32,000 nt of DNA from Nonlabens ponticola (GTDB lineage: Bacteria > Bacteroidota > Bacteroidia > Flavobacteriales > Flavobacteriaceae), in NCBI RefSeq assembly GCF_003966335.1, contig NZ_CP034549.1, positions 1,380,001 through 1,412,000 on the forward strand, written 5' to 3'. Made by a program: the position numbers and the translations under genes. Below the pieces are notes generated by a model. It was not told where the DNA came from and did no database searches. It saw nothing but the letters and a program-made list of their open reading frames with translations. Shown piece after piece: positions 1,604-30,184 of this stretch. The first letter of the stretch is position 1. Each line of letters opens with the position of its first letter.

Positions 1604-1637
1604 GCTTTCCTGCCTGCCGGCAGGCAGGCGCGAAAGC
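1604..1637. repeat. Interrupted copy of the GCTTTCGCGAAAGC palindrome carrying a nested 20-bp perfect palindrome (CCTGCCTGCCGGCAGGCAGG, 1609-1628)
   Basis: The plus strand reads GCTTT[CCTGCCTGCCGGCAGGCAGG]CGCGAAAGC. Removing the 20-mer restores the exact 14-mer. On the reverse complement the flank reads GCGTAATCA, as in the copy at 25691. It lies 8 nt downstream of the cry-DASH stop codon. Confidence 0.9.
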
Positions 1638-1644
1638 AAAATTA

Positions 1645-2970
1645 TTACTCACTTAACCACAAGTCACGATATTCATGGTCGCCATCATAGCGATCTGCCT
1701 GCGATTGAATGTTGAAGGTGCGATTTCTAGGATCGTTGCCCACGCCGCTGTTGTACATCCAGTTACCGTAGTTGCTGTGTACGTCATAGTCAATGAGAAT
1801 GTGTTCAAAATAGGCAGCGCCTATACGCCAATCCTGCTCGCGATGCATAGACCAATAGCTGGCTACATTTTGACGGCCACGGTTACTCATGAATCCAGTG
1901 GCGGCGATCTCCTTCATGTTTGCATTGACAAAATTCTCATGCGTCTCGCCTTGCATCCATTTCTTGAGTTCTTTATCGTTAGCCTTCCAATCATAATCTT
2001 TTTGTAGAATACCACCTATGTCAAAGATCTTCTCGCGATGTTTAAGTGATACATATTTGAAAAAATCTCGCCAGATTAATTCAAAAACCAACCAATACGT
2101 ATCCTGATTTTTCTTGATCTCTTTCTCAAACTTTTTCACCTCATGATAGATCTCACGAGGGCTAATGCTACCTACTGCCAACCATGCGCTGAATTTGCTG
2201 CTGTAATCAGTTCCTACGAGTCCGTTTCTGGTTTTTTTGTAGCTTTTGAGTTGTTCTGTTTTCCAGAAATAATGCTGCAGTCGATTCCATGCCGTCTTGC
2301 TGCCGCCTTTCCATGGAAAAGCCGTGCGTTCATCTTTCTCAAAAGTCTCTAATCCTAAATCTTCTAGAGTTGGTAAGTCAGTGTTCTCAACATCGATCGC
2401 TTCTTGAGAATAATTATCAATCTCAATAAGATCGCGCACGCTGGATTCTTTTTCTAGTTTCTTGCGCAGCTCGGTAAATACCTTAGGGATTTTATCAAAA
2501 CTATCAAACGGTATATCGTCAGGATGATATAAAAACTGATCGTAGAATCTGTGACCTTTTACTTGGTCTTTCAGTCCTTTTTCTTCCAACGCTTGGCCCA
2601 GCTCTTCTTCCTGCTCTATTTCATCACGCGTCCATTCCTTTTGCAGGTAAATGTTCTTGATATCATGTTTTTCAATCAATGATGGTATGACAGCAGCTGG
2701 CTTGTCATGAAATACCAATAACGGGATATTTATCTCATCCAATTGCCTGCGCAAATCCTCGACGGATTCTATTATGAATTGTGCGCGATATTTACCAGTA
2801 CGGCTAAAAGGTAACTCTATATCCACGTTAAGATTGAAATCACTTTCTTTGTAGAATCGAGGGTCAAAAAAATACACGCCTATCACACTACCTTCTGCAT
2901 CACAGGCAGCCTTAAGACTTACTTGATCTTGTGTTCTTAAATCATTTCTAAACCAGACTAAACTTGCCAT
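1645..2970 (-). CDS. DASH-family cryptochrome (photolyase/cryptochrome family, FAD-binding)
   Basis: 441-aa ORF. The N-terminus MASLVWFRNDLRTQDQ and the C-terminal FAD-binding region (FMSNRGRQNVASYW, GNWMYNSGVGNDPR) are characteristic of Cry-DASH/photolyase proteins. It sits in a cluster with another photolyase-family gene. Confidence 0.85.
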   Translation of the reverse strand: MASLVWFRNDLRTQDQVSLKAACDAEGSVIGVYFFDPRFYKESDFNLNVDIELPFSRTGKYRAQFIIESVEDLRRQLDEINIPLLVFHDKPAAVIPSLIEKHDIKNIYLQKEWTRDEIEQEEELGQALEEKGLKDQVKGHRFYDQFLYHPDDIPFDSFDKIPKVFTELRKKLEKESSVRDLIEIDNYSQEAIDVENTDLPTLEDLGLETFEKDERTAFPWKGGSKTAWNRLQHYFWKTEQLKSYKKTRNGLVGTDYSSKFSAWLAVGSISPREIYHEVKKFEKEIKKNQDTYWLVFELIWRDFFKYVSLKHREKIFDIGGILQKDYDWKANDKELKKWMQGETHENFVNANMKEIAATGFMSNRGRQNVASYWSMHREQDWRIGAAYFEHILIDYDVHSNYGNWMYNSGVGNDPRNRTFNIQSQADRYDGDHEYRDLWLSE

Positions 2971-2982
2971 TTTCTCTTCATA

Positions 2983-3126
2983 TTATTTATTAGAACTGCA
3001 TTTTTTACTACAGTAGATCACGCTTTCCCAATTCTTTTCCCACTTCTTGCGCCAGGTAAACTCTCGTTCACAAACGGGACAAACTTTAGTAGGTAGATTA
3101 TGCGGATTGCGTGCTTTTTGTTTCAT
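2983..3126 (-). CDS. DUF2256-like small zinc-ribbon protein (47 aa)
   Basis: Below the ORF-track size cutoff. Hand translation gives [47 protein letters not shown], with a CxxC...CxxxC pattern and the WRKKW motif typical of DUF2256. Its ATG overlaps the upstream stop by 1 nt (ATGA at 3126). This family is commonly found beside photolyase genes. Confidence 0.75.
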
Positions 3127-3773: not shown

Positions 3774-3786
3774 AATGCTATAATCT

Positions 3787-3890: not shown

Positions 3891-6800
3891 CTACTTAATA
3901 ATGAATCGCTCTACGAGCGTTTCTTTTTTAGTCTCAATTTGTAGCATGTAAACACCTACGGCAAGATTACTCACGTTAATCGCTTGAGTGGTTTCACCTT
4001 GTAGTACCTGCTGTCCTTGCATGTTAAGCACACTATACTTGATGTTTTCAAGACTTGTCACTTTCACATTTAAGGTTCCGTTTTCAACTGGATTGGGATA
4101 AATCGAGAATAATGGCGCATCGTCTATTGGTGACTTATTCACCGCATATTGATAATCATTATTAGTAGCATTACCTAAACAGAAAGATTTTACATCTGTT
4201 CTAGTAAATGATCCACCTGATGCAAGTACAGCACCATTTGAACTGTTAGTCAATGCATAACTACCATTACCGTATTGGCAACAAATACCATCGCCGTAGG
4301 CATCAGTAAAAGTCAACGTATAACAATCCTCTGGCAACGTCAATGGAATGTTTACGGTAGAGCCGTCTGCTTGAGATGCATACGTTCCACCAGAGGCAAC
4401 TGTTGCGCCCGAACTATTAACTAACGTCCAGCTTGTCTCTTCTGGGTAGTTGTCAAAAGTAATTCTCAAGTTAGCTGCTACGGGTTGTGCTGCTGCACCA
4501 TCGGTGAGTTTCACATCATCGATAGCCATATCACCTTGCCATGTAGTTCCTGTAGTACCATTAAATCTCAATCTTACTGTTCCTGCACTATATGCTGATA
4601 AGTCAACGCTGGCATCTCTCCAGGCGTTACCTTGATTACCAGACTTGCTCCATACGGTTGACCAGCTCGCTCCATCATCTTCAGATGCTTGTAGCAATAG
4701 ACCACCCATATTGGTAGCACCATACATATGATACTTGAAGGTAAGTGTAGCATCACTTACTCCAGCAAGATCAAAACATGGCGAGTTTAATATTGCGGTT
4801 TTGGTGCTGTAGTTAGGTGCCGATGATTCCATGTAAACATAGTTAGAACCTTCGCTTGCGCTTGATGGTCCAGTTGCATTAGACGGCGTGCCACCGCTTC
4901 TACGAGTCCAGTTAAAATCATCGCCAGTCCCTTGAGTCCAGCCACCTAAACCAGATTCAAAACCTTCTGCATAAGGTGTTCCAGCTGTAGCCACACATCC
5001 AGCAGACGCCTCTGGCTCTGTAGTAAAGCTCACTGCCGCACTTTGATTACTGATGTTTCCAGCAGCATCTTTAGCTGCCACTCTAACTGAATAGTTTGTT
5101 CCAGCGGTCAATCCAGTCAAGTTTGCAGTTGTTCCTGCAAGAGAGCCTAGTAATGCACCATTTGAATACACATCATATTCTGTCACGCCAACATTATCTG
5201 TAGAAGCATTCCAGTTTAAGGATGCTGTAGTTTGTGTGATCGCGCTTACTACCACATTTGCTGGCACGCTAGGCGCCGTTTGATCAACTGGTGTAACATT
5301 TACTACATTAGAAGCATTGGACTTGTTTCCAGCTGCATCAACAGCTACAATACTAAAGCTGTAGGTCGTCCCAATAAATAATCCATTTACTACTTGACTT
5401 GTGTTAGTTGTTGTAGTAAGTAGATTAGAACCATTATAAACTTCATAGCCAGTCACGCCTACATTATCACTTGATGCATTCCAGACCAGAGTTGCAGAGG
5501 TCTCACTCACGTTATTTGCAACAAGTGAGCCTGGCGCTGTCGGTGCTGTTGTATCAGCGACAACGCTTCCTACATTCACCGTGTAATCTTCTACCTCGCC
5601 ATAGTCAAATGTTTCACAAGCTGTTGGCAACGCATTATATTTCATAGAAACTCTCAGGCGAGTTGCGCCACTCGCAGCACCACTCGGAACTGTAAATGAT
5701 CCAGAAATCAGTACATTTTGCGATGGTGCAGCAGTGAAGACTTGCTCACCAGCATCGTTGAAATCGCCATCTTGATTGTAATCAATCCACATTGCATAAG
5801 CCTCATTATACTTAGTTCCAGTCCATGTAGGCGTTATTTCTAAGGTGTATGAATCGCCAACTGCTAGGTCTGTGCTTGAGGCTGTAAAGTTGCTATAACC
5901 AGCTGCATTGCCCGTACTTGATTTATTGATCGCATTTAATTTGAAATTGCTGATGTACTCATCTGCCACGCTATTTCCTTTAGACGCACAGTACTGAACA
6001 CTGGTCGTAGAGAAATTGATTGTCGAGCTGTATGCACTTTGAGAACCGTCAGCACATACGCTTCTCACCTGAACTTGATAAGCTGTATTTGCAGTAAGTC
6101 CAGTAAGGTTTGCAGTCGCATTGTTAACTTGTTGTGTCGTCCATGCAGTTGTTCCGCTTTCGCGAAAGCGTACAACATAAGAAGCACTAGGAATTGCAGT
6201 CCATCCTATGGTGGCATCTTTGTCGCTTGCGCCGTTCAATTGAACGTTAGCCGGCACTGAAGCTACACATGGCTGTGCCTGTGCTGCGATTCCTGTAACG
6301 ATCAATGAATAATTCTGAGAACCGCCGGTAAGCGTTCCTTTATGGGTAACTCTTATGGTATAGGTCCCAGAGGCATTTGCTACAGTAATGCGCTCATAAG
6401 GATCTCTTGAATTGTCACCTAGTCCATTGGTATTAACCCCAGTCAATCTCCAAGGTAAAAACGTTGAGCCATTTTTAGAGACACGCACGTCAAGGTCATT
6501 GACAAGTCTAGCTGTGTTGCTATTTGTTGCTGTAGTTGCAACTCCAGCACGGTCAGTCCAAGAGATAGAAGCCATTAAGTCATTGATGCCATCAGAGTTC
6601 ACGGTAATCTCATATGTCTCACCAGCACTTAAAGTAAGTTCAGAAATTTGAGAAGCAGTTCCTTCATTGGTGATAACTTCTGCAGCCTTTTTAGTATTCA
6701 TTAAACCCCAACCGTAAATTGGATCTGGACCTACCATTCCAGCATCATCTGCCGTGTGTAGTGCAAGACCTTTTACCGTCGCAGCTCTCATGTATGAACC

Positions 6801-7913: not shown

Positions 7914-8190
7914 TTGTTTGGGTTTTGATTAAAACAGGCTAGAAAGAAACCAAAATTTGTGTTAACCAACTAAGGATTTGTACAGAGTTATTACCAACTA
8001 ATTATCATTTGTATAAACACGTATTATTATCCATCTCATAAACAGTTAATTACATAAAATTGACAAATGTTAAAATTTTAACTGCAGCTAAACGATTTAT
8101 CATTTCACTCGGTTAAGTGCTTTAGTTTTGTTGTTTTAGCAAGTTTCTAGTCTCAAATAATGCTAGATCGATAATTTGATAGCCAAAATC

Positions 8191-9000
8191 ATGAAAGACC
8201 AAAACCCAGACGTCTTAAAAGCCATCGAGATCAACAGGCAAACCTGGAACGATAGGACAAATGCTCATTATAGCAGTGGCTTTTATGATAGTTCCGCTTT
8301 CGCGAAAGCAAAAAATTCATTGAACTCCTACGAGATAAATGCTTTAGGAAATGTTACCGGCAAGTCTGTGCTGCACCTGCAATGTCATTTTGGGCAAGAC
8401 AGTCTGAGTTGGGCGCATAAAGGTGCTACAGTCACAGGCGTAGACTTTTCAGAAACAGCAATCAACAAGGCGCGAGAACTAAGTGCTGAGTTGAAGATTC
8501 CAGCCAAATTTGTTTCATGCAATGTTTTTGATACAGCATCTCATATCGATAAGAAATTTGACATCGTTTTTACCAGCTATGGAGTGATAGGCTGGTTACC
8601 AGATTTAAAGCCATGGGCACAAATGATTGCCACCATGCTCAAACCTGGTGGTACCTTTTATATGGTAGAGTTTCACCCAATCGCATGGATGTTTGATTAC
8701 CTAGAAAAGCCAGCCGTCATGAAATATCCATACTCAAATAAAGAGGTCATCTATGAGGAATACTCTGGCAGCTATGCCTCGACTGAAAGTGATTTGAACA
8801 GTAAGGAATATACTTGGAATCATCCCCTAAGCGAAGTGATACAATCCTTGATCGATGCAGGTCTCACCATCGAGCTTTTTGCAGAGCATGACGGCAGTCC
8901 ATATAATGTATTCCCAGAAATGACAAAAAAAGGAGATTTATATTATTTAGAAAACCAATTGTACCCTACTATTTTTGAGATTAAAGCCACAAGATCCTAG
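8191..9000 (+). CDS. Class I SAM-dependent methyltransferase
   Basis: The ORF-track entry 8176-9000 begins at a TTG, and the first ATG (8191, MKDQNPDV) is preferred. The SAM-binding motif context is VLHLQCHFGQDSLSWAHKGATVTGVDFS, followed by DIVFTSYGV. Confidence 0.75.
   Translation: MKDQNPDVLKAIEINRQTWNDRTNAHYSSGFYDSSAFAKAKNSLNSYEINALGNVTGKSVLHLQCHFGQDSLSWAHKGATVTGVDFSETAINKARELSAELKIPAKFVSCNVFDTASHIDKKFDIVFTSYGVIGWLPDLKPWAQMIATMLKPGGTFYMVEFHPIAWMFDYLEKPAVMKYPYSNKEVIYEEYSGSYASTESDLNSKEYTWNHPLSEVIQSLIDAGLTIELFAEHDGSPYNVFPEMTKKGDLYYLENQLYPTIFEIKATRS
8296..8309. repeat. GCTTTCGCGAAAGC palindrome copy
   Basis: Exact 14-mer inside the methyltransferase CDS, translated SAFAKA. The reverse-complement flanks are TTTTT...GGAAC. 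Confidence 0.95.
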
Positions 9001-10638: not shown

Positions 10639-10652
10639 GCTTTCGCGAAAGC
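10639..10652. repeat. GCTTTCGCGAAAGC palindrome copy
   Basis: Exact 14-mer in the spacer between the convergent GH3 and HExxH genes. The reverse complement reads GTTTT-GCTTTCGCGAAAGC-GCAAT. Confidence 0.95.
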
Positions 10653-13712: not shown

Positions 13713-15023
13713 CTATTGTACTGTACTTGCTGCCATCTTACAATGTTCATCTATGCAATCACCCAGCGAAACACCGCTTACGAAATTACCAGCGACCTTG
13801 AATCCAGTATTCTGTAATTCCCATTGAGCAATATCATTCAGTAATTGGTGATGACCTACCTTTTTTTGTGGTATAGCCTGTGGCCAGTTTTTATGATCAA
13901 GCAGCTCCAGTTTAGCAGAGTAGCCTGTCCATTTTTCAAATAGCGGCTGGCACAAGGTATCTAATAGTTTTTTTGGCTCATTGGTTGCCGTATGATCTGG
14001 TTTGATGAAAAAATTGATCAAACCATGTGTTTCCGTACGAGCTGTTTCAAAAACTAGAGCATTATACATAACGCCTATCAAATCCTTGCGCTCAAAGCCA
14101 GAGGCTAGAAAGCCAAAACCTGTGCAGCATCGCTCTAATTCCGCAAGATCGACACGTGTTTGCAAGGTGAGCATCGGGTTGTAATCGATAATTAATTTTG
14201 GAAAGTCGGCTGGCATAATTCTAAGCAACGCATAGGATGGCAAGGTTGAGATGACTCGACTAGCAGTAATTTCTTCACCCGTGGATAATTTTATTTTCCA
14301 GTGCGCATCGTTCTTATTTACATTGACTACTTCAGTGTCAAGGTGCATATGATTGTTTTGCTTTCGCGAAAGCGTAACCACCAATGACTCTAAACCATTT
14401 TTCAAAGTAATGATCTTGCGACTGGCACCGGGCGAATTTTTAAGTCCTTTAAGTACGCTTCCAAATTCACGTTCCAACTCGACAAGCCGCGGGAAAACGC
14501 TCGCCATTTCAAGTTCTCTTGCATCACCAGCATAGATACCCGATACTATCGCACCGGCCATACGTTGCGCGACCTGAGTGCCAAATCTGCGCTCAAAAAA
14601 GTCATAGACGCTCTCGCCAGCAGGTGATTTCGATTTAATAAAAGGCTCTTTAAGGATACGCAGTTTCCCAGAAACAGACAGCAATCTAGTGGTAATCAAA
14701 GTGAGCGGCGACGCCTTGAGCGTGTGCAGCTGGTCATCCCAAAGTATCTGGCGTATGTTGCTCTCTTGACGTGCATGAATAATTTCTTTTTCCAGATCCA
14801 GCTCTTTTAAAAGTTCATTCACAGCTGGCGTGGCAACGAGACTATTAGGTCCGTATTCTATGGTCAGTCCATCAACATGCTTAGACTGTATCACGCCACC
14901 AGCTCTGGCTGACTTTTCAAGAACGGCATATTCCACGCCTTGTTTGTGCAATTCAAATCCAGCACTCAAACCAGACAGGCCAGCGCCCAGAACAAGTGTG
15001 TCATAATGTGATTTGAGTTGCAT
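13713..15023 (-). CDS. hemY: Protoporphyrinogen oxidase (FAD-dependent, HemY/PgoX type)
   Basis: 436 aa. It has an N-terminal dinucleotide-binding fold (YDTLVLGAGLSGLSAGFELHKQGVEYAVLEKSARAGG). Its length and its C-terminal GNFVSGVSLGDCI are typical of HemY-type oxidases. Confidence 0.8.
   Translation of the reverse strand: MQLKSHYDTLVLGAGLSGLSAGFELHKQGVEYAVLEKSARAGGVIQSKHVDGLTIEYGPNSLVATPAVNELLKELDLEKEIIHARQESNIRQILWDDQLHTLKASPLTLITTRLLSVSGKLRILKEPFIKSKSPAGESVYDFFERRFGTQVAQRMAGAIVSGIYAGDARELEMASVFPRLVELEREFGSVLKGLKNSPGASRKIITLKNGLESLVVTLSRKQNNHMHLDTEVVNVNKNDAHWKIKLSTGEEITASRVISTLPSYALLRIMPADFPKLIIDYNPMLTLQTRVDLAELERCCTGFGFLASGFERKDLIGVMYNALVFETARTETHGLINFFIKPDHTATNEPKKLLDTLCQPLFEKWTGYSAKLELLDHKNWPQAIPQKKVGHHQLLNDIAQWELQNTGFKVAGNFVSGVSLGDCIDEHCKMAASTVQ
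14360..14373. repeat. GCTTTCGCGAAAGC palindrome copy
   Basis: Exact 14-mer inside hemY, translated LSRK. The plus-strand context is GTTTT-GCTTTCGCGAAAGC-GTAACCACC. Confidence 0.95.
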
Positions 15024-15172: not shown

Positions 15173-15256
15173 TTCCATATTCCATATTCCATATTCCATA
15201 TTCCATATTCCATATTCCATATTCCATATTCCATATTCCATATTCCATATTCCGTA
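15173..15256. repeat. Heptanucleotide tandem array: (TTCCATA) x 11 perfect copies plus a 12th copy with one mismatch
   Basis: Perfect units start at 15173, 15180, 15187, 15194, 15201, 15208, 15215, 15222, 15229, 15236 and 15243. Unit 15250-15256 is TTCCGTA. The array is intergenic, between the divergent hemY and guaB genes. Confidence 0.95.
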
Positions 15257-15328
15257 CTCGATAGTTCAATTATAAGTTTAAGTTCAATATTCCGTACTCG
15301 ATAGTTCAATTATAAGTTTAAGTTCAAT
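15247..15328. repeat. Perfect tandem duplication with a 40-bp period
   Basis: Positions 15247-15288 are identical to 15287-15328. The unit is TATTCCGTACTCGATAGTTCAATTATAAGTTTAAGTTCAA. The first copy begins inside the last heptamer units, so the second copy also starts with ATATTCC. Confidence 0.95.
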
Positions 15329-17897: not shown

Positions 17898-19150
17898 TCG
17901 CGACCATCATTACCATAGGTGATGAAATCCTTATAGGTCAAATTGTCGATACTAATTCTGCATGGATGGCTCGAGAGCTTAATCGTGTTGGGGTTTCAGT
18001 TCTTGAGATCATGTCTATTAGTGATGATGAGGATCATATAGTTTCAGCTTTCGCGAAAGCGGAACAACAATCAGACATCGTTCTAGTCACCGGCGGATTG
18101 GGACCTACCAAAGACGACGTTACCAAGACTGCTTTATGCACATATTTTCAAGATGAGCTGGTACTTGACGAGGCTACCTTGCAACACGTCAAAGATCTGT
18201 TTGCCAAATATGTAAAAGACAAATTGTTGCCCGCTAATGAGACGCAGGCGATGCTACCGTCAAAAGCCACGATTTTAAAAAATGAATACGGCACCGCACC
18301 TGGAATGTTGTTGGTGAATAATGACACCACGTTTGTATCCATGCCAGGTGTGCCCTTTGAGATGAAGGCGTTGATGATCAATCACGTGATACCTTATATA
18401 GTAGAAAAAGGTGAGTTACCTTATATATATCACAGGACGATCTTGACAGCTGGACAAGGTGAGAGTACCATCGCGCACAGGATTGAGCAATGGGAAAACT
18501 TATTGCCAAGTCATGTAAGCCTTGCATATTTGCCTAGTTTAGGATCTGTAAGACTGCGATTGTCGTGCAAAGGAATGGACAAGGAACAGGTAACTCGCGA
18601 TGTTGATGCGCAGGTGGATCAATTGTATGGATTGTTAGCAGATATTATAGTAGGCGAGAGCAACGACGAGACACTTTCACAACAGATAAGTGCCTTGTTT
18701 AAGAGTCAAGAAAAAACACTTGCCGTTGCAGAAAGTTGTACCGGCGGCCAAATCGCGCAACAATTGACACAACATCCAGGCGCGTCACAATTTTTCAAAG
18801 GAGCTTCTGTCACCTATGCAACCCAGTCAAAAGTGGATTTGCTAGACGTAGATCAAGCCTTGATAGATAAATATAGTGTGGTGAGTGAAGAAGTTGCTAT
18901 TGCCATGGCAATAGGTGCGAGAAAAAAATTTAAGGCAGACGTTGCTGTTTCTACCACAGGTAACGCTGGTCCAGATAAGGGCGATAGTGATGTAGCCGTA
19001 GGAACTGTTTGTATAGGTATTGCTACTGGTGATCAACAATATGCTCTCAAATTCATGATGGGAAATCATAGAGAACGTGTGATTCAAAAAACAGTCAATA
19101 AGTCGATGGAACTATTGCAAAAAGAATTATTAAAAAAGGCAGTAATTTAG
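17894..19150 (+). CDS. cinA: CinA family protein (competence/damage-inducible protein A; MoCF-binding N-domain plus nicotinamide-nucleotide amidohydrolase PncC-like C-domain)
   Basis: 418 aa. The N-terminus reads IITIGDEILIGQIVDTNSAWMA...VTGGLGPTKDDVTK. The C-domain reads LAVAESCTGGQIAQQLT...STTGNAGP. Confidence 0.9.
   Translation: MIATIITIGDEILIGQIVDTNSAWMARELNRVGVSVLEIMSISDDEDHIVSAFAKAEQQSDIVLVTGGLGPTKDDVTKTALCTYFQDELVLDEATLQHVKDLFAKYVKDKLLPANETQAMLPSKATILKNEYGTAPGMLLVNNDTTFVSMPGVPFEMKALMINHVIPYIVEKGELPYIYHRTILTAGQGESTIAHRIEQWENLLPSHVSLAYLPSLGSVRLRLSCKGMDKEQVTRDVDAQVDQLYGLLADIIVGESNDETLSQQISALFKSQEKTLAVAESCTGGQIAQQLTQHPGASQFFKGASVTYATQSKVDLLDVDQALIDKYSVVSEEVAIAMAIGARKKFKADVAVSTTGNAGPDKGDSDVAVGTVCIGIATGDQQYALKFMMGNHRERVIQKTVNKSMELLQKELLKKAVI
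18047..18060. repeat. GCTTTCGCGAAAGC palindrome copy
   Basis: Exact 14-mer inside cinA, translated SAFAKA. The 22-nt GCTTTCGCGAAAGCGGAACAAC (18047-18068) is identical to the reverse complement of 6148-6169. Confidence 0.95.
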
Positions 19151-20986: not shown

Positions 20987-22654
20987 ATGAGATTTTTGTA
21001 CTTATTTCTATTCGTTTTTATTGTTGCCTGTGGCCCATCTCAAAATGCTACCACGCAAGAAAATAATGGGGAACAAGAAGCCAAGGCTTCTCAAGAGCCT
21101 AAGGAGCTAGAAGAAATGGATTTCAAGGTACTGGATTCTAAATACATCACTAGAGATGATGTTTTTGCAGTTTTGAAGGCTGATGTGTTACGCTTTCGCG
21201 AAAGCTCGCCTAGCGGTAATCGCAAGAAAGACGAAATGAACGAGTACGTACTCGAGAAAACCATACCTGAAATACAAAGCGCGATTTATGAGAATAAATT
21301 TACCTATAGGGATCTAGCATTGTTTTATCTGGATAGGATTTATCGCTATGACCGCAATAACGAGCTTTCCTTAAACAGTGTCATCTCACTTAATCCTAAG
21401 GTCTTAGAACAAGCAACTGCTGCGGATAAGCGCATGGATCAAATGAAATCCTATGGCGAGTCCTTCAATCCATATACGATCACAGGTATGCCTATCCTAT
21501 TAAAGGATAACATCAATACGGCCGACATGCCAACGACTGCTGGCGCTGCAACATTGATGGAAAATCAAACAAGAGATGCACAGATAGTGACCAATTTGAA
21601 AGATGCCGGTGCGATTATTTTAGGGAAGGCCAACTTGAGCGAATGGGCATATTTTTTCTGTGGAGATTGCCCAAGCGGCTACAGCGCTGTCGGTGGTCAA
21701 ACATTAAGTCCCTATAAACGCAAGTTTATTGATACAGGTGGATCGAGTAGTGGTAGCGGTGTTAGTGTCGCTGCAAATCTAGCGGTTGCCGCGGTAGGAT
21801 CAGAGACAAGTGGATCTATACTGTCACCTAGTTCTCAAAATTCTGTGGTTGGGTTCAAGCCTAAAGTGGGTACTTTATCTGGTGACGGCATCGTGCCTAT
21901 TTCCAGTTATCTTGATACTGCTGGCCCGATGGCAAAAAGTGTAATAGATGCGGCTATACTTATGCAAGCGCTAACTGGTGATACGTCAAATGCTTTTATT
22001 GACAATACGTTACTTAAAAAACTTGATGAAGCTAGTTTGAAGGGTAGAAGATTTGGTATTTTCCCAGACTTTAAATCAAATCCATTGTATGCAAAAGCCA
22101 TTCAAGATGTTAAGAATCTGGGTGGTGTCATCGTTGAATTGCCTGCACGAGAAGTGCAACTCAATAATTTCTTGACGGTCTTGAATGCAGATATGCGTCA
22201 AGATTTACCGGCTTATTTTAAGGAAAGTGCAAATAAGAAATACAATGGTTGGGATGTTGGTAAGGTAATGATGGAGAATCGCAAGGACAGTATCAATGCC
22301 ATGCCTTATGGGCAAAGACTTTTTCAAGGAATCATGGACGAGAAAGAAATGACTGATGCTGAATTCCTTGCCGTCAAAAATAATATTACGGCAAACGCAC
22401 AAAATTATTTTGATAGCTATATAAATGATTATGGACTGGATGGTTTTTTATCCATCAATAATTACAGTGCAGGAATAGCAGCGGTAGGATTTTATCCTGC
22501 ATTGACTGTACCTATGGGTTATGACTTGAATGGTGTTCCCTATGGATTGACTTTTATAACTAAGGATGATTTGTCCCGACAGCTATTCGTATGGGCAGCA
22601 GCTTATGAAAACGCTTATCCTAAAAGAAAGATACCTTCTAATTATACCAAATAA
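20987..22654 (+). CDS. Amidase-signature (AS) family amidase, probable lipoprotein
   Basis: 555 aa with a lipoprotein-type signal (LFVFIVAC). AS motifs are present: ILLKDNINT (Lys), GGSSSGSGVSVAANLAVAAVGSETSGSILSPS (cis-Ser/Ser). Confidence 0.85.
   Translation: MRFLYLFLFVFIVACGPSQNATTQENNGEQEAKASQEPKELEEMDFKVLDSKYITRDDVFAVLKADVLRFRESSPSGNRKKDEMNEYVLEKTIPEIQSAIYENKFTYRDLALFYLDRIYRYDRNNELSLNSVISLNPKVLEQATAADKRMDQMKSYGESFNPYTITGMPILLKDNINTADMPTTAGAATLMENQTRDAQIVTNLKDAGAIILGKANLSEWAYFFCGDCPSGYSAVGGQTLSPYKRKFIDTGGSSSGSGVSVAANLAVAAVGSETSGSILSPSSQNSVVGFKPKVGTLSGDGIVPISSYLDTAGPMAKSVIDAAILMQALTGDTSNAFIDNTLLKKLDEASLKGRRFGIFPDFKSNPLYAKAIQDVKNLGGVIVELPAREVQLNNFLTVLNADMRQDLPAYFKESANKKYNGWDVGKVMMENRKDSINAMPYGQRLFQGIMDEKEMTDAEFLAVKNNITANAQNYFDSYINDYGLDGFLSINNYSAGIAAVGFYPALTVPMGYDLNGVPYGLTFITKDDLSRQLFVWAAAYENAYPKRKIPSNYTK
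21192..21205. repeat. GCTTTCGCGAAAGC palindrome copy
   Basis: Exact 14-mer inside the amidase CDS, translated RFRES. The reverse-complement flank is GTAACAC. Confidence 0.95.
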
Positions 22655-25690: not shown

Positions 25691-25704
25691 GCTTTCGCGA
25701 AAGC
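25691..25704. repeat. GCTTTCGCGAAAGC palindrome copy (16-bp palindrome at 25690-25705)
   Basis: Exact 14-mer in the divergent OMP/rimO spacer. The context is ATTTC-GCTTTCGCGAAAGC-GTAATCACC. Confidence 0.95.
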
Positions 25705-25746: not shown

Positions 25747-25754
25747 TAAATTTG
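25747..25754 (+). promoter_or_regulatory. Candidate -7 promoter box (TAAATTTG) for rimO
   Basis: Exact TAnnTTTG match. It overlaps the track's TTG start (25752) and lies 9 nt before the ATG at 25764, which supports the 25764 start. Confidence 0.4.
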
Positions 25755-25763
25755 CAGCCGCTT

Positions 25764-27068
25764 ATGAGAACAAAAACAAGAAAAAAGAACCGTATCAATG
25801 TCGTCACTCTAGGATGTTCTAAGAATGTCTATGATAGCGAGGTCTTGATGGGTCAATTGAAGGCCAGTGGTAAAGATGTGGTTCATGAGGAAGAAGGTAA
25901 TGTCGTGGTCATCAATACTTGTGGTTTTATTGATAATGCTAAGGAAGAATCTGTCAACACCATTCTTGACTTTGTCGAGCGCAAAAATCGTGGTGAGGTC
26001 GATCAGGTTTTTGTTTCAGGTTGTTTGTCAGAGCGTTACAAGCCAGACCTGCAAGAAGAGATTCCAGATGTGGATCAGTATTTTGGCACGACAGAGCTGC
26101 CATCACTTCTCAAGGCGCTGGGCGCAGATTATAAGCACGAACTCATAGGTGAGCGTGTAACAACAACACCTAAAAACTATGCCTACTTCAAGATTGCGGA
26201 AGGTTGTGATCGCCCATGTTCCTTCTGTGCGATACCGCTTATGCGTGGTGGACACAAGAGCACGCCCATAGAAAACCTAGTCATTGAGGCAGAAAAGCTT
26301 GCGTCAAATGGCGTTAAAGAATTGATACTCATTGCTCAAGATTTGACTTATTACGGTCTTGACCTTTATAAAAAACGCCGCCTAGCCGATTTACTAACTG
26401 AGCTTTGTAAAGTAGATGGTATTGAGTGGATAAGGATGCACTATGCGTTCCCAACTGGTTTCCCGACTGATGTTCTCGATGTCATGAATGCAGAGCCTAA
26501 GGTGTGTAATTACCTAGATATACCATTGCAACACATTTCCACACCAGTATTGAAGTCAATGCGACGCGGTACCACATTTGAGAAGACTAACGCGCTGCTA
26601 GAAAAATTCCGTGAGCAGGTGCCTGATATGGCGATTAGAACTACGCTTATTGTTGGTTATCCTGGTGAGACGCAAGAAGATTTTGACATCTTGAAGCAAT
26701 GGGTAATTGACCAGCGATTTGAAAGAATGGGTTGCTTTACCTATTCTCATGAAGAAAACACACATGCCTACAAACTTGAGGACGATGTTCCTGCAGATGT
26801 CAAACAAGAGCGCGCCAATGAAATTATGGAGATCCAGTCACAGATATCATGGGAACTGAATCAAGAAAAAATAGGTAAGCAGTTCAAGGTCATGATTGAC
26901 CGCAAGCGTGGCGGCTACTTTGTAGGCCGTACAGAATTTGACAGCCCAGACGTGGACAATGAAGTGCTCATCGATGCCAGCGAGCATTATTGCAGTGTTG
27001 GCGAGTTTGTAAATGTAGAAATAACTGCGGCTGAAGATTTTGATTTGTATGCGGTGCCAGTTGCCTAA
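25764..27068 (+). CDS. rimO: Ribosomal protein S12 methylthiotransferase RimO (radical SAM, MiaB family)
   Basis: The N-terminal UPF0004 cysteines are present (VVTLGCSKN, INTCGF, SGC), as is the radical-SAM CxxxCxxC (CDRPCSFCAIP). It has a C-terminal TRAM domain, and its size is typical of RimO. Confidence 0.85.
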   Translation: MRTKTRKKNRINVVTLGCSKNVYDSEVLMGQLKASGKDVVHEEEGNVVVINTCGFIDNAKEESVNTILDFVERKNRGEVDQVFVSGCLSERYKPDLQEEIPDVDQYFGTTELPSLLKALGADYKHELIGERVTTTPKNYAYFKIAEGCDRPCSFCAIPLMRGGHKSTPIENLVIEAEKLASNGVKELILIAQDLTYYGLDLYKKRRLADLLTELCKVDGIEWIRMHYAFPTGFPTDVLDVMNAEPKVCNYLDIPLQHISTPVLKSMRRGTTFEKTNALLEKFREQVPDMAIRTTLIVGYPGETQEDFDILKQWVIDQRFERMGCFTYSHEENTHAYKLEDDVPADVKQERANEIMEIQSQISWELNQEKIGKQFKVMIDRKRGGYFVGRTEFDSPDVDNEVLIDASEHYCSVGEFVNVEITAAEDFDLYAVPVA

Positions 27069-27078
27069 ATTAAGATGT

Positions 27079-28146: not shown

Positions 28147-30027
28147 TCATACATCTAATTTTTCTGTCAACTCCAGCCATTGCATTTCTAGTTCTTCTAG
28201 CTCTGATTTTGTTTTCTCTAGTTTGATAGAGTTTGCTGTGACATCATCAGTAGATAGACTGGTATCTAGAAAGCTGTCTTGTAAGGTCTTCTTTTGCTGT
28301 TCTAGCTTTTTAATTCTGTTTTCTAGTCTAGAAAGTTCTTTTTGCTCTTCTCTTGTTGGTCCGCTTTTAGTCGCAGTCTTTATCGCAGGTTCAGCTGTTG
28401 GTGAAGGCTTAGATGGTGCTTTTGTTTCTGGCTCTAGCGCAATATCGGTACTACCTACATAGGATCTAAAGTCTGAATAGTTGCCAGGGAAATCTGTGAT
28501 GTCGCCAGACTCGTTAAACACAAATAAGTGATCCACGATCTTATCCATAAAATATCTATCGTGGCTCACTACCAGAATACAGCCAGGAAAATCCATCAAG
28601 AAGTTCTCCAGCACATTGAGTGTTGGGATATCGAGATCATTAGTCGGCTCATCAAGAATCAAGAAATTAGGATTTTGTATCAGTACGGTACACAAATACA
28701 ATCGCTTGCGCTCGCCACCGCTCAGTTTTTCTACAAAATCATGTTTTTTCTTGTTATCAAACATGAAACGCTCAAGCAGCTGGCTAGCACTGATGATCTT
28801 GCCTTTATTAAGTGGTATGTACTCGCCGTATTCCTTGACCACATCAATCACCTTTTGGCCTGGCTTGATGTCGATTCCCGTTTGGGTATAGTAACCCATA
28901 CTAACTGTTTCTCCTACCACGACCTTACCAGTATCGGGCTTTAACTTACCAGTGAGTATATTGAGAAAGGTAGATTTACCGGTACCGTTTTTACCTATGA
29001 TTCCCAACCGTTCACCACGCTGGAAATTATAGGAGAAGTTATCGATCAATTGCTTGCCAGTAAACGATTTTGAGATCTTGTGTAGTTCTACAATTTTAGT
29101 TCCCAGACGCTGCATGTTGATCTCCAGCTCCACTTGATGTTCCTTGCGACGGTTGAAGGCTGCTTCTTTGATGGTATAAAAATCATCGATGCGTGATTTG
29201 GACTTGGTTGTACGTGCCTTGGGCTGGCGACGCATCCATTGCAGCTCTTTTTTATAGAGTTGCTGGGCTTTTTCTTGCGTGGTTTGCTCAATATCAAGTC
29301 GCTCCTGTTTTTTCTCCACATAATAGGAGTAGTTACCTTTATATGTATAGAGATTGCCGCGATCCAATTCAATAATCTCCGTACACACGCGATCCAGAAA
29401 ATAACGATCGTGCGTCACCATAAGAATAGTATAATCTTCCTGCTTAAAATAGCTCTCCAGCCACTCGATCATTTCTAGATCCAGGTGGTTTGTAGGCTCA
29501 TCCATTATGAGCAATTGTGGATCAGACAATAGTGCGATGGCCATGGCGATGCGCTTTTTTTGACCACCACTCAATTTGCCTATGATTTGGGATAGGTCGT
29601 CGAGCTTTAGTTTGGATAAAATCTGTTTGTATTTGGTCTCAAAATCCCACGCATTGGCGGCATCCATTTGGTCAAATGCTGCCTGGTAGGCATCTGCGTC
29701 TTCCATGTTTTGCATGGCGCGCTCATAGTTTGCAATGATCTTAATGGTAGGAATGTCAGAATCCAGTATGGCTTGCTCAATAGTGATTTTGGGATCCAGA
29801 TCAGGTTCCTGCGATAAAAAAGCCATGCGCAGGTCGTTGCGTCGATTGACCGTGCCGCTATCAGGTTGTTCCTTGCCAGCGATAATATTGAGTAGCGAGG
29901 ACTTGCCGTAGCCGTTTTTGGCAACGAAACCTATTTTTTGCCCTTCATTAATTCCCAGCGACACATTTTCAAACAGTGCTTTATCAGCAAAGGCTCTGGA
30001 TACATTCTCGACACTTATGTAATTCAT
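28147..30027 (-). CDS. ABC-F family ATPase (two ABC domains, no TM domain, C-terminal coiled coil; Uup-like)
   Basis: 626 aa. It has two Walker A motifs (GFVAKNGYGKSS and GIIGKNGTGKST), two LSGGQKKR/LSGGERKR signature motifs and two Walker B motifs (LLIMDEPTNHLD and FLILDEPTNDLD). The C-terminal tail is charged and helical. Confidence 0.9.
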   Translation of the reverse strand: MNYISVENVSRAFADKALFENVSLGINEGQKIGFVAKNGYGKSSLLNIIAGKEQPDSGTVNRRNDLRMAFLSQEPDLDPKITIEQAILDSDIPTIKIIANYERAMQNMEDADAYQAAFDQMDAANAWDFETKYKQILSKLKLDDLSQIIGKLSGGQKKRIAMAIALLSDPQLLIMDEPTNHLDLEMIEWLESYFKQEDYTILMVTHDRYFLDRVCTEIIELDRGNLYTYKGNYSYYVEKKQERLDIEQTTQEKAQQLYKKELQWMRRQPKARTTKSKSRIDDFYTIKEAAFNRRKEHQVELEINMQRLGTKIVELHKISKSFTGKQLIDNFSYNFQRGERLGIIGKNGTGKSTFLNILTGKLKPDTGKVVVGETVSMGYYTQTGIDIKPGQKVIDVVKEYGEYIPLNKGKIISASQLLERFMFDNKKKHDFVEKLSGGERKRLYLCTVLIQNPNFLILDEPTNDLDIPTLNVLENFLMDFPGCILVVSHDRYFMDKIVDHLFVFNESGDITDFPGNYSDFRSYVGSTDIALEPETKAPSKPSPTAEPAIKTATKSGPTREEQKELSRLENRIKKLEQQKKTLQDSFLDTSLSTDDVTANSIKLEKTKSELEELEMQWLELTEKLDV

Positions 30028-30061
30028 GCAATAGCTTTTAGGGACAGATTATCGACCTGTG

Positions 30062-30069
30062 CAAAATTA
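30062..30069 (-). promoter_or_regulatory. Candidate -7 promoter box (TAATTTTG) for the ABC-F gene
   Basis: The minus strand reads TAATTTTG, matching TAnnTTTG, 34 nt upstream of the ATG at 30027. Confidence 0.4.
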
Positions 30070-30170
30070 CGTTCAATTACTCGCTCTTGATCATGAGCAA
30101 GAAGCAAACTTGCAGTAATATTCATGAGTGTGGATAAGATGCTTTTATGGTTGCTGTTTTGGGTGATTAT

Positions 30171-30184
30171 GCTTTCGCGAAAGC
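30171..30184. repeat. GCTTTCGCGAAAGC palindrome copy
   Basis: Exact 14-mer in the divergent ABC-F/wza spacer. The context is ATTAT-GCTTTCGCGAAAGC-GGTAC. Confidence 0.95.

What the first reader, a model, noticed from the sequence alone, without database searches (positions are those of the whole stretch)
1604..30184. Highly over-represented dispersed palindrome GCTTTCGCGAAAGC with a conserved asymmetric flank (8 perfect copies plus 1 interrupted in 32 kb)
Perfect copies lie at 6156-6169, 8296-8309, 10639-10652, 14360-14373, 18047-18060, 21192-21205, 25691-25704 and 30171-30184. A ninth copy (1604-1637) is split by a 20-bp insert. A given 14-mer is expected about 1e-4 times in 32 kb of random sequence (32000/4^14).

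This is more than a symmetric binding site. When every copy is oriented so that the next base is G, the 3' flank takes only a few forms:
- GGAAC in three copies (6156 rc, 8296 rc, 18047).
- GTAAC or GTAAT in four copies (14360, 21192 rc, 25691, 1604 rc).
- GCAAT in one copy (10639 rc).
- GGTAC in one copy (30171).

The 5' flank is usually T-rich; TTTT directly abuts the 14-mer in four copies. The unit is therefore about TTTT-GCTTTCGCGAAAGC-GKAAY (at least 19 nt) and falls into at least two subfamilies. Orientation is mixed (4 plus, 5 minus).

Four of the nine copies lie in the roughly 10% of the window that is non-coding. Their contexts differ: after a stop codon, between convergent genes, and in two divergent promoter spacers. 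The core contains TCGCGA.

I do not recognise this as a described repeat family. Its behaviour recalls cyanobacterial HIP1, REP/BIME elements, neisserial DNA uptake sequences and Rickettsia palindromic elements. It is shorter than REPs or MITEs and longer than HIP1.
Basis: partly seen in the sequence, partly recalled or inferred. Interest (0 to 1): 0.8.

Follow-up and report, generated by a model that had tools for sequence, protein, structure and literature searches.

The report
Hyper-abundant evenly spaced flavobacterial palindrome
Nonlabens and Dokdonia, two genera of marine flavobacteria, keep one perfect copy of the palindrome (C)GCTTTCGCGAAAGC(G) about every 3.5 kb, inside genes and between them, which resembles the DNA-uptake sequences of Neisseria/Haemophilus and the HIP1 palindrome of cyanobacteria and seems not to have been described in this phylum.

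Summary
The window (Nonlabens ponticola) has 8 perfect GCTTTCGCGAAAGC copies against 0.08 expected. A ninth copy is split by a 20-nt palindrome.

The claimed asymmetric flank does not hold. Across 151 copies from related genomes, both sides follow the same rule: G at +1 in 80% of cases, then K-A-A, then about 18 nt of G-poor sequence. The unit is therefore a symmetric CGCTTTCGCGAAAGCG with AT-rich shoulders.

- The motif is concentrated in Nonlabens, Dokdonia and unnamed Flavobacteriaceae.
- Copies arise by substitution, not insertion.
- Copies are conserved at orthologous positions while neighbouring synonymous sites are saturated.
- Perfect copies outnumber one-mismatch copies about 10:1.
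- Non-coding density is about 2.8 times coding density.
- Spacing is far more even than random, with no gap under 1.4 kb among 35 gaps (11.4 expected).
- A lytic Nonlabens phage has no copy. Prophage-like contigs carry the motif at host density.
- One lineage carries a single transition in every copy.

REP, MITE, RPE, operator and terminator readings fail. Best reading (about 0.4): a DUS/USS/HIP1-like self-DNA tag, read as duplex DNA by a dimeric protein and acting in DNA uptake or recombination. Main rival (about 0.3): an intracellular chromosome-organisation or repair landmark. I found no published description.

The parts
1604..1637 (.). Motif copy interrupted after its fifth base: GCTTT | 20-nt insert | CGCGAAAGC. 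Intergenic, between convergent genes (846-1211 + and the photolyase gene 1645-2970 -).
   Evidence: Folded as one strand it forms a -14.2 kcal/mol hairpin.
1609..1628 (.). Inserted perfect 20-nt palindrome CCTGCCTGCCGGCAGGCAGG. It is not part of the motif family. It is a separate, widely dispersed sequence.
   Evidence: Single copy in the window. Exact copies occur in at least 120 metagenome stretches and 35 viral stretches with unrelated flanks.
6156..6169 (.). Perfect copy inside the T9SS-type protease gene 3891-7913 (-), read as RFRES. Full 16-mer, C at -1 and G at +1.
8296..8309 (.). Perfect copy near the 5' end of the small-molecule methyltransferase gene 8176-9000 (+), read as AFAKA. The equivalent position (+90) is occupied in N. 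arenilitoris (L123) and N. xiamenensis (L124).
10639..10652 (.). Perfect copy, intergenic, between the convergent genes 9082-10611 (+) and 10695-11279 (-). It is absent from the orthologous spacer of a Dokdonia MAG (L103).
14360..14373 (.). Perfect copy inside the amine-oxidase-type gene 13713-15023 (-), read as LSRK.
18047..18060 (.). Perfect copy in cinA (17894-19150 +), read as AFAKA. It is conserved at the same codons in 10 of 11 Nonlabens DNA sequences examined. Every synonymous position is identical, while about 50% of same-amino-acid codons differ elsewhere in the gene.
21192..21205 (.). Perfect copy near the 5' end of the amidase gene 20987-22654 (+), read as RFRES. The orthologous copy is perfect in L122 and L123, has one mismatch in L125 and L170, and has 9 mismatches in L121.
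25691..25704 (.). Perfect copy in the divergent spacer 61 nt upstream of the rimO/miaB-type gene 25752-27068. A full 16-mer. Orthologous copies lie 66-76 nt upstream of the same gene in L122, L123 and L170, and a one-mismatch copy in L125.
30171..30184 (.). Perfect copy in the divergent spacer between the ABC-F gene 28147-30027 (-) and the polysaccharide-export gene 30255-31118 (+).

Best explanation
The element is a clade-specific genomic signature sequence of the DUS/USS/HIP1 kind. It is a perfect 14-bp palindrome, usually the 16-mer CGCTTTCGCGAAAGCG, with about 18 bp of A/T-rich, G-poor sequence on each side.

Shown:
- It is maintained at roughly one copy per 3.5 kb in Nonlabens, Dokdonia and related Flavobacteriaceae. 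Extrapolated to the 2.87-Mb N. ponticola genome, that is about 800 copies (inference).
- Copies arise in place by base substitution, in genes and spacers alike.
- Copies are then held invariant.
- A second copy almost never appears within about 1.4 kb of an existing one.

Inferred mechanism:
- A homodimeric protein reads the motif as duplex DNA.
- One site per few-kb segment is enough, so the benefit or drive saturates locally.
- The most likely process is preferential uptake and/or recombination of self DNA during natural transformation. This is the role of DUS/USS and the role now proposed for HIP1.
- Biased uptake plus recombination, or selection for it, would spread and preserve perfect copies.
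For: Over-representation and specificity:
- Observed/expected is 1.5e5 for the perfect motif, 236 at one mismatch and 3.7 at two. The drops are 650-fold and 64-fold. For DUS/USS the published drops are 92/82-fold and 9/7-fold (PMC1939737).

Clade restriction:
- Of 120 genome stretches returned, 91 come from Flavobacteriaceae or unnamed MAGs with family-like flanks (2 labelled only 'uncultured bacterium'), many with 2-3 copies per 8 kb. The other 29 stretches carry single copies with random flanks.

Origin and maintenance:
- Copies arise by substitution, not insertion.
- Orthologous copies stay conserved although synonymous sites around them are saturated.
- Non-coding density is 0.52 per kb against 0.19 per kb coding. 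The reading frame is biased (AFAKA 78, xFRES 32, LSRK 29). Coding copies favour the 5' fifth of genes. Uptake sequences likewise sit where constraint is weak (PMC7811141).

Spacing:
- In the window the coefficient of variation of gaps is 0.27, P about 4e-4.
- In 8-kb tiles of other genomes no gap is under 500 bp (7.6 expected).
- In seven loci (the window and six loci fetched through cinA, not through the motif) no gap among 35 is under 1.4 kb (11.4 expected).
- Even spacing is reported for USS and expected under molecular drive (PMC1939737; PMC7811141).

Flanks and structure:
- AT-rich flanks next to a GC-rich core resemble the USS (PMC7811141).
- The hairpin is weak at -2.1 kcal/mol, and flanks of one copy are not complementary beyond +2. 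Both point to recognition of duplex DNA.

Phages:
- The lytic Nonlabens phage P12024S has no copy in 35.7 kb.
- Siphovirus-like or provirus contigs carry 3-6 copies each.
- USS show the same contrast between lytic and temperate phages (PMC6776037).

Precedents:
- Riemerella, in the same family, is naturally competent and prefers its own DNA, but no uptake sequence has been found for it (PMC7965970).
- The palindromic HIP1 raises transformation efficiency (10.1101/2024.09.10.611283).
Against: - No experiment or gene links this motif to uptake.
- Competence is not documented for Nonlabens or Dokdonia in the papers I could search.
- Classical DUS and USS are not palindromes and are 3-4 times denser.
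- The exclusion of neighbours closer than about 1.4 kb is stricter than reported for USS.
- Only one lytic phage was examined. The lifestyle of the motif-bearing viral contigs is inferred.
- Even spacing, conservation and phage patterns fit an intracellular function equally well.
- I could not search whole genomes for a receptor, a methyltransferase or competence genes.
Confidence: 0.4

Rival explanations
1. The motif is an intracellular chromosome landmark. It would be the binding or modification site of a dimeric nucleoid-associated protein or loop anchor. Alternatively it would be a methylated landmark for strand discrimination in mismatch repair, as Elhai proposed for HIP1. Selection would keep one site per few kb along the chromosome.
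For: - Spacing is very even, with a hard exclusion zone.
- Individual sites are strongly conserved.
- The symmetric flank footprint spans about 50 bp in all.
- HIP1 has been argued to act in nucleoid structure (PMC5861425) or in methyl-directed repair (PMC4390886).
- Resident prophages would gain the sites and a lytic phage would not.
- CGCG is strongly depleted in phage P12024S, 9 observed against 35-43 expected. This hints that CGCG is a restriction-modification target in that host, so the motif centre may be methylated.
Against: - I know of no nucleoid-associated protein that needs about 800 perfect 16-mers. Known palindromic chromosome sites (parS, the Noc-binding site, matS, the SlmA-binding site) number about 10-100 per genome (own knowledge).
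- Keeping each of about 800 sites perfect by selection on a collective function needs a strong benefit per site.
- No candidate protein or methylation data are available.
Confidence: 0.3
2. The motif is self-propagating and is written into the genome by templated short-patch conversion. A site-specific nickase or repair system would convert near-cognate sequence to the perfect motif. A biased very-short-patch-type repair coupled to a methyltransferase is one form. The motif would then have no organismal function.
For: - Orthologous positions are all-or-none. The RimO +841 site is perfect in N. marinus and in a Dokdonia, but carries 7-10 mismatches and different amino acids in four other Nonlabens.
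- Copies with 2-5 mismatches are almost absent.
- Perfect copies outnumber one-mismatch copies about 10:1.
- In lineage L125 all five copies carry one transition, four of them C-to-T, as if a maintenance activity had been lost.
Against: - A purely mutational or repair bias predicts neither the exclusion zone and even spacing nor the long-term conservation of particular sites. Xu et al. made the same argument for HIP1 (PMC5861425).
- The sampled species are saturated at synonymous sites, so gradual intermediates could simply be unsampled.
- No enzyme is known that writes a 14-16-mer.
Confidence: 0.12
3. The motif is a miniature insertional mobile element or REP-type extragenic palindrome (REP/BIME with a RAYT transposase, MITE, Rickettsia palindromic element, cyanobacterial SDR).
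For: - It is a dispersed, identical palindromic sequence.
- One copy (1604-1637) is involved in a nested insertion.
Against: - About 75% of copies lie inside ORFs.
- There is no length difference from orthologues that lack the motif. CinA has the same spacing to GGLGPT in 120 homologues. The RimO alignment is gap-free at the site; in amidase the motif columns align without a gap (a gap begins just after them).
- Flanks beyond about +4 share only composition, with no terminal repeats and no target duplications.
- No transposase or RAYT-like gene lies in the window.
- The hairpin is only -2.1 kcal/mol.
Confidence: 0.03
4. The motif is an operator of a global transcription factor, a transcription terminator or an RNA element.
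For: - It is a palindromic 16-mer of operator-like design.
- It is enriched in spacers and in the 5' parts of genes.
Against: - Most copies are inside genes in all three reading frames. Spacer contexts are mixed: convergent, divergent and tandem.
- The T-rich flank lies 5' and the A-rich flank 3' of the stem, the reverse of an intrinsic terminator.
- No Rfam family matches in the window.
- The RNA or DNA hairpin is weak.
- About 800 perfect sites is far beyond any regulon.
Confidence: 0.03

Closest known systems
HIP1 (GCGATCGC) and alternate highly iterated palindromes of cyanobacteria
   Same: - A perfect palindrome, hyper-abundant, found in ORFs and spacers.
- It often carries palindromic extensions.
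- It is conserved at orthologous positions, which implies selection.
- Its distribution along the chromosome is non-random.
- Its function was long unknown and is now linked to natural transformation.
(PMC4390886, PMC5861425, 10.1101/2024.09.10.611283, 10.64898/2026.06.24.733823)
   Different: - A different phylum (Bacteroidota).
- An unrelated sequence. HIP1 itself occurs once in the window.
- Twice as long (14-16 nt against 8-10 nt).
- Lower density, about 0.26-0.29 per kb here against the 0.3-2.7 per kb reported for HIP1 (PMC4390886).
- A short-range exclusion zone of about 1.4 kb, rather than the 10-90-kb periodicity of HIP1.
- The inner hexamer TCGCGA is not enriched by itself.
- No cognate methyltransferase has been identified.
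DNA uptake sequences: neisserial DUS (10-12 nt) and pasteurellacean USS (9-nt core plus AT-rich flanks)
   Same: - Specific to a family or genus.
- A core of similar length with AT-rich flanks.
- Hundreds to thousands of copies.
- Built by substitution within genes, with reading-frame and position biases.
- Over-represented in spacers.
- Over-representation collapses with a single mismatch.
- Relatively even spacing.
- Accumulates in temperate phages but not in lytic ones.
(PMC1939737, PMC7811141, PMC6776037)
   Different: - The element is palindromic, whereas DUS and USS are not.
- It is 3-4 times sparser.
- It falls off more steeply with mismatches (650-fold against about 90-fold).
- Uptake bias, a receptor and competence itself are all undemonstrated in these genera.
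REP/BIME elements with RAYT transposases; MITEs; Rickettsia palindromic elements; Nostoc small dispersed repeats
   Same: Short, dispersed, palindromic repeats.
   Different: - Those elements are insertions and mostly extragenic. Rickettsia palindromic elements do enter genes but add residues in frame.
- This motif replaces existing bases, adds no length, lies mostly in ORFs and has no associated transposase in view.
Chi sites
   Same: - Similar density, about 1 per 4-5 kb in E. coli (own knowledge).
- Present in genes.
- Serves as a marker of self DNA.
- A Chi-like role was suggested for HIP1.
   Different: Chi sites are 5-8 nt, asymmetric, biased by strand and orientation, and read as single-stranded DNA. 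This motif is a 14-16-bp palindrome.

Membership tests
DNA uptake sequence (DUS/USS) | Motif-bearing DNA is preferentially taken up or transformed by competent cells through a specific receptor | not testable with these tools
   This needs uptake or transformation competition assays. The only precedent in the family is Riemerella, which prefers its own DNA (PMC7965970).
DNA uptake sequence (DUS/USS) | Hundreds to thousands of copies per genome, clade-specific, far above compositional expectation | tested here: met
   42 copies in 160 kb against 2.7e-4 expected. The motif is concentrated in Nonlabens, Dokdonia and related Flavobacteriaceae.
DNA uptake sequence (DUS/USS) | Copies arise by point substitution in ORFs and spacers, with over-representation collapsing as mismatches increase | tested here: met
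   There are no indels relative to orthologues. Observed/expected is 1.5e5, 236 and 3.7 at 0, 1 and 2 mismatches.
DNA uptake sequence (DUS/USS) | Accumulates in temperate phages and prophages but not in lytic phages | tested here: inconclusive
   The lytic phage P12024S has 0 copies in 35.7 kb. Several siphovirus-like or provirus contigs have 3-6 copies. Only one lytic phage was examined, and the lifestyles of the contigs were not verified.
Highly iterated palindrome (HIP1-type) | A perfect palindrome that is the most over-represented oligomer of the genome, in ORFs and spacers | tested here: met
   It is the top repeated 10-12-mer in the window, L122 and L127. About 75% of copies are in ORFs.
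Highly iterated palindrome (HIP1-type) | Sites conserved between genomes beyond what the coding constraint explains | tested here: met
   The cinA site reads GCT TTC GCG AAA GCG identically in 10 of 11 Nonlabens sequences, although about 50% of same-amino-acid codons differ elsewhere. Outgroups encode other residues at this position.
Highly iterated palindrome (HIP1-type) | The sequence GCGATCGC or a derivative, in cyanobacteria | tested here: not met
   GCGATCGC occurs once in the window. The organism is a flavobacterium.
Highly iterated palindrome (HIP1-type) | Co-occurring orphan methyltransferase(s) that recognise the inner sequence | not testable with these tools
   No whole-genome gene search or methylome was available. 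TCGCGA outside the motif occurs at the expected frequency.
REP/BIME (RAYT-associated) | Extragenic location | tested here: not met
   139 of 186 copies lie inside long ORFs.
REP/BIME (RAYT-associated) | Imperfect palindrome forming a stable stem-loop, with a RAYT gene in the genome | tested here: not met
   The 14-mer hairpin is -2.1 kcal/mol with z = -0.2. No transposase-like gene lies in the window. A genome-wide search for RAYT was not possible.
MITE / Rickettsia palindromic element / small dispersed repeat (insertional) | Presence or absence appears as an insertion relative to orthologous loci | tested here: not met
   CinA keeps the same length to GGLGPT across 120 homologues. RimO is aligned without a gap at the site; in amidase the 14 motif columns are aligned without a gap, though a gap starts immediately downstream.
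Intrinsic terminator | GC-rich hairpin followed by a T-run, located at the 3' ends of genes | tested here: not met
   The flanks are T-rich on the 5' side and A-rich on the 3' side. Most copies are intragenic.
ParB/Noc-type chromosome sites (parS, the Noc-binding site) | A 14-16-bp palindrome TTTC-N4-GAAA, about 10-100 sites per genome | tested here: not met
   Here the TTTC and GAAA blocks are separated by 2 nt, not 4 (direct reading of the sequence; the consensus sequences are from my own knowledge). The density implies about 800 sites.

The most novel reading that the evidence does not exclude
The motif would be the first DNA-uptake or recombination signal sequence in Bacteroidota. It would be a palindromic 16-mer read by a dimeric receptor. 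That would mean Nonlabens, Dokdonia and related abundant marine Flavobacteriaceae are naturally transformable and preferentially exchange self DNA. The 'one mutation per site' lineage (L125) would be a natural loss or purge of the system and would point to the partner gene.
Probability: 0.3. Interest if true: 0.85.

Novelty: new variant of a known kind. Interest (0 to 1): 0.7.

Why it matters
Sequence tags that mark self DNA are known experimentally in only two proteobacterial families. HIP1 in cyanobacteria is now suspected to be a third case.

A third or fourth independent case, in ecologically important marine flavobacteria, has several useful properties:
- It is unusually long and perfectly palindromic.
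- It is almost lattice-like in spacing.
- It provides a sharply defined 16-bp bait for finding the protein that reads it.
- It provides a natural mutant lineage for comparative genomics.
- It makes an open question testable: are such motifs products of uptake drive or of an intracellular function?

There are practical uses as well. The motif is a specific marker for binning Nonlabens and Dokdonia DNA and for predicting the hosts of their temperate phages. Adding it to constructs might improve genetic manipulation of these bacteria.

Tried and rejected
- **HIP1 or cyanobacterial origin:** GCGATCGC is not enriched. The window is Nonlabens ponticola.
- **Other interrupted copies:** a search of about 0.8 Mb of clade DNA found only the window's copy.
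- **Alternative palindromic variants or compensatory two-mismatch forms:** none found.
- **Palindromic extension of the flanks (a longer hairpin):** no complementarity within a copy beyond +2.
- **TCGCGA or CGCG as the real unit:** TCGCGA outside the motif is at expectation in host DNA.
- **RNA family or tRNA association in the window:** none.
- **Mobile-element genes in the window:** only housekeeping genes.
- **Literature:** the motif string, and Dokdonia/Nonlabens with repeats, palindromes or methylomes, gave nothing relevant.
- **Extending the N. ponticola sequence beyond the window by exact-protein look-ups:** three attempts failed because the proteins were not on record. The apparent one-sided G flank in this species could therefore not be tested on more copies.
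- **Homology of viral contigs to the window:** the repeated 4480-bp gap is a coincidence, with no nucleotide similarity.
- **The 20-nt insert as a hairpin-apex-seeking element:** adjacent flank complementarity is not above chance, 2.13 against 2.05 of 8. An excess of flanking direct repeats is real, 22% against 5%.

Full report
**1. Observation**

The 14-mer GCTTTCGCGAAAGC occurs eight times in the window, exactly at the reported coordinates. No copy with one or two mismatches exists. Dinucleotide-preserving shuffles give 0.08 matches, and that count allows up to two mismatches.

The ninth copy at 1604-1637 reads GCTTT | CCTGCCTGCCGGCAGGCAGG | CGCGAAAGC. The motif is split after its fifth base by a perfect 20-nt palindrome, with no target duplication.

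Five copies lie in ORFs, in all three reading frames:
- AFAKA in a methyltransferase gene and in cinA.
- RFRES in a T9SS-type protease gene and an amidase gene.
- LSRK in an amine-oxidase-type gene.

Four copies are intergenic. The window encodes ordinary housekeeping genes and no transposase. No Rfam family and no tRNA gene is present.

**2. Source and distribution**

The cinA product is 100% identical to that of Nonlabens ponticola, on a contig of 2,872,100 bp.

- 91 stretches come from Flavobacteriaceae (2 of them from MAGs labelled only 'uncultured bacterium'). Most are Dokdonia, Nonlabens (including strain BBFL7) and unnamed Flavobacteriaceae MAGs. Many carry 2-3 copies per 8 kb.
- A few hits with family-like flanks come from Aquimarina, Leeuwenhoekiella, Altibacter and a Flavobacterium.
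- The 29 stretches from other phyla each carry one copy with random flanks.

I fetched 21-kb regions syntenic with the window through cinA orthologues. They hold 4-6 copies in N. marinus, N. dokdonensis, N. arenilitoris, N. xiamenensis and one MAG. Dokdonia sp. Hel_I_53 holds 8.

The motif is the top repeated 10-12-mer in these sequences. HIP1 is not enriched.

**3. True extent of the element; the asymmetry claim**

I pooled 151 copies and read both flanks outward from the core.
- +1 is G in 80% of sides.
- +2 is T or G.
- +3 is A in 70% and +4 is A in 60%.
- G stays at 2-10% out to about +18, against a background of 19-20%.

Both sides carry G at +1 in 100 of 151 copies. The joint counts match independent draws from one distribution. 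The logo is the same for coding and non-coding copies.

Within a copy the two flanks are no more complementary than composition predicts beyond +2. The element is therefore symmetric: CGCTTTCGCGAAAGCG with A/T-rich, G-poor shoulders, about 50 bp in all.

N. ponticola does show fewer G at +1 (11 of 18 sides), but the difference is not significant. There is only a weak genus preference at +2 to +3.

The 14-mer folds weakly as a single strand, at -2.1 kcal/mol with z = -0.2. Together with the lack of flank complementarity, this points to recognition of duplex DNA by a dimeric protein rather than to a hairpin.

**4. How copies arise and persist**

In CinA the copy encodes S-AFAKA-E/K.
- Among 120 homologues, 70 contain AFAKA at this site: 69 Nonlabens or Nonlabens-like sequences as S/D/N-AFAKA and one, P0101, as SFAFAKA.
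- Dokdonia and more distant genera have other residues (EAFDAAQ, KSLQEAG and others).
- The distance to the conserved GGLGPT is identical in all of them, so the copy is a substitution and not an insertion.

At the DNA level, GCT TTC GCG AAA GCG is identical in 10 of 11 Nonlabens sequences. Between the same species about 50% of same-amino-acid codons differ, so synonymous sites are saturated.

Other orthologous copies are shared among species:
- The amidase N-terminus.
- The spacer 61-76 nt upstream of rimO.
- The methyltransferase gene at +90.
- A Top1B gene.
- An HTTM-domain gene.

There is also turnover. The 10639 copy is absent from the orthologous Dokdonia spacer, and N. marinus lacks two conserved sites and has others nearby.

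States at a given position are all-or-none. The RimO +841 site is perfect in N. marinus and in a Dokdonia. In four other Nonlabens it shows 7-10 mismatches and different amino acids.

In 833 kb of clade DNA there are about 190 perfect copies, 21 with one mismatch and 15 with two. No alternative palindromic variant exists.

In 160 kb of DNA (the window plus six loci fetched through cinA rather than through the motif), observed/expected is 1.5e5, 236 and 3.7 at 0, 1 and 2 mismatches. This fall is steeper than the published one for DUS and USS (PMC1939737).

TCGCGA outside the motif occurs at the expected frequency, so the whole 14-16-mer is the unit.

**5. Placement**

Density is about 0.52 per kb outside long ORFs and 0.19 per kb inside them. 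Frame use is biased: AFAKA 78, xFRES 32, LSRK 29. These figures rest on crude ORF models.

Coding copies favour the first fifth of genes: 40 of 103, KS P = 7e-4, again with crude gene starts.

Spacer contexts are mixed: convergent, divergent and tandem. The T-rich flank lies 5' and the A-rich flank 3' of the core, the reverse of a terminator.

**6. Spacing (new)**

| Data set | Result |
|---|---|
| Window, nine copies | Gaps 2140-4542 bp, CV 0.27, P about 4e-4 against random placement |
| 8-kb tiles of other genomes | 0 gaps under 500 bp (7.6 expected); 2 under 1 kb (14.4 expected) |
| Window plus six cinA-fetched loci, 35 gaps | Minimum gap 1415 bp; 0 under 1.4 kb (11.4 expected); CV 0.51 against 0.89; P < 5e-5 |

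An existing copy therefore suppresses a second one nearby. Whatever maintains the copies saturates at about one per few kb.

**7. Phages**

The 16-mer occurs in only 40 stretches of IMG/VR.
- Several contigs with tape-measure, HK97-type capsid or portal, and terminase genes carry 3-6 copies at host-like density.
- One of these appears to be a provirus from an isolate genome, judged from its IMG/VR identifier (my reading).

The cultured lytic Nonlabens phage P12024S has none in 35.7 kb, even allowing two mismatches. USS in Pasteurellaceae show the same contrast: temperate phages accumulate them and lytic ones do not (PMC6776037).

**8. A lineage without perfect copies**

A Nonlabens-like metagenomic contig (L125) has no perfect copy in 21 kb.
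- It has five relics, each with exactly one transition, four of them C-to-T.
- All five lie at positions where relatives have perfect copies.
- Its closest sampled relatives (L169, L170) keep perfect copies.

With a usual perfect to one-mismatch ratio of about 10:1, this is not chance. 'Exactly one hit in all five' also fits poorly with simple neutral decay, at most 0.007 by my Poisson estimate.

Three explanations are possible:
- The motif was purged in this lineage.
- The maintenance system was lost recently.
- There is a methyl-cytosine hot spot that extinguishes itself after one hit.

The hits fall at half-site positions 2, 5, 6, 6 and 7. The reader of the motif therefore senses at least positions 2-13. 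This lineage is a natural handle for finding the partner gene.

**9. Interpretation**

These readings fail tests of their defining features (see the membership table):
- Insertional or extragenic repeat families (REP/BIME, MITE, Rickettsia palindromic element, small dispersed repeat).
- Operator, terminator and RNA readings.

What remains is the class of genomic signature sequences. The element shares nearly every computable property of DUS and USS:
- Clade specificity.
- Copy number.
- Origin by substitution, with costs to the proteome.
- Enrichment in spacers.
- Collapse of over-representation with mismatches.
- AT-rich flanks.
- Even spacing.
- The contrast between temperate and lytic phages.

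It shares with HIP1 its palindromy and its conservation by selection (PMC5861425). HIP1 has recently been shown to raise transformation efficiency and has been proposed as an uptake signal. Natural competence with a preference for self DNA exists in the same family, in Riemerella, without an identified uptake sequence (PMC7965970).

I therefore rank a self-DNA tag acting in uptake or recombination first, at about 0.4. An intracellular landmark (nucleoid or loop protein, or a methyl-directed repair signal as Elhai proposed for HIP1) explains spacing and conservation equally well and ranks second, at about 0.3. A self-writing conversion process ranks third, at about 0.12. It fits the all-or-none states but does not explain the exclusion zone.

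Shown: abundance, symmetry, substitutional origin, conservation, spacing and distribution. Inferred: the dimeric reader and any function.

**10. Novelty**

I found no description of this motif. It is a new variant of a known kind. It is as long as an uptake sequence, palindromic like HIP1, in a new phylum, and has an unusually strict spacing rule.

**11. Side observation**

The 20-nt palindrome that interrupts the copy at 1604-1637 is itself widespread.
- Exact copies occur in at least 120 metagenome stretches (the scan was truncated) and 35 viral stretches. The contigs range from 32% to 71% GC, and the flanks are unrelated.
- One copy sits inside a tRNA gene that is still recognisable (L195).
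- Flanking direct repeats are in excess, 22% against 5%.
- No paper in the library holds the string.

I did not resolve what it is.

Noticed in passing
window 1609-1628; loci L171-L290: The 20-nt perfect palindrome CCTGCCTGCCGGCAGGCAGG that splits one motif copy occurs as exact copies in at least 120 metagenome stretches (scan truncated) and 35 viral-contig stretches. The contigs range from 32% to 71% GC and the flanks are unrelated. Some contigs carry several copies. One copy lies inside a still-recognisable tRNA gene (L195 2239-2330). Flanking short direct repeats are in excess (22% against 5%), while complementarity of the adjacent flanks is not. No paper in the library holds the string. 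It may be a tiny, widely dispersed insertion. An artefact is not fully excluded.
   Followed up: partly
L125 (Logan SRR12366084 contig) 2608, 10154, 13325, 16080, 16997: A Nonlabens-like lineage in which every motif copy carries exactly one transition and no perfect copy remains in 21 kb. Its sister contigs L169 and L170 keep perfect copies. This suggests a purge or a recent loss of the maintenance system.
   Followed up: partly
L168 (Nonlabens phage P12024S, JQ823122), whole genome: The lytic phage has no motif copy. It is also strongly depleted in CGCG (9 observed against about 35-43 expected) and has no TCGCGA (about 3.5 expected). This looks like avoidance of a CGCG-specific restriction system of its host, so the centre of the motif may be methylated in hosts.
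   Followed up: no
window 15173-15328: A perfect heptamer tandem array, TTCCATA x 11.6 (15173-15253), is followed at once by a 40-nt unit repeated 2.2 times (15243-15328). Both lie in the spacer upstream of the IMP dehydrogenase gene (15452).
   Followed up: no
about 18 nt on each side of every copy (e.g. window 30150-30205): There is a strand-specific composition flip at the motif. The strand read outward from the core is G-depleted (2-10% G against 19-20%) and A-rich on both sides, in coding and non-coding copies alike. The two flanks are not complementary to each other.
   Followed up: partly
RimO genes: L121 20096, L109 1478, L125 16997; window about 26600: The same codon position (+841) carries a perfect copy in N. 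marinus and in a Dokdonia MAG and a one-mismatch copy in L125. It carries 7-10 mismatches, with different amino acids, in N. ponticola and three other Nonlabens. States are all-or-none, with no intermediates.
   Followed up: partly
clade loci, coding copies: Coding copies are concentrated in the first 20% of genes (40 of 103, KS P = 7e-4, crude gene starts). Many lie 80-200 nt after the start codon, for example in the cinA, amidase, methyltransferase and RNase HII genes.
   Followed up: partly
L135, L147/L164/L167, L157, L152, L133/L148/L155 (IMG/VR contigs): Siphovirus-like contigs with tape-measure, HK97 capsid or portal, and terminase genes carry the motif at host-like density. One copy lies inside a terminase gene, read as AFAKA. 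The motif could serve to predict Nonlabens or Dokdonia as hosts of temperate phages.
   Followed up: partly
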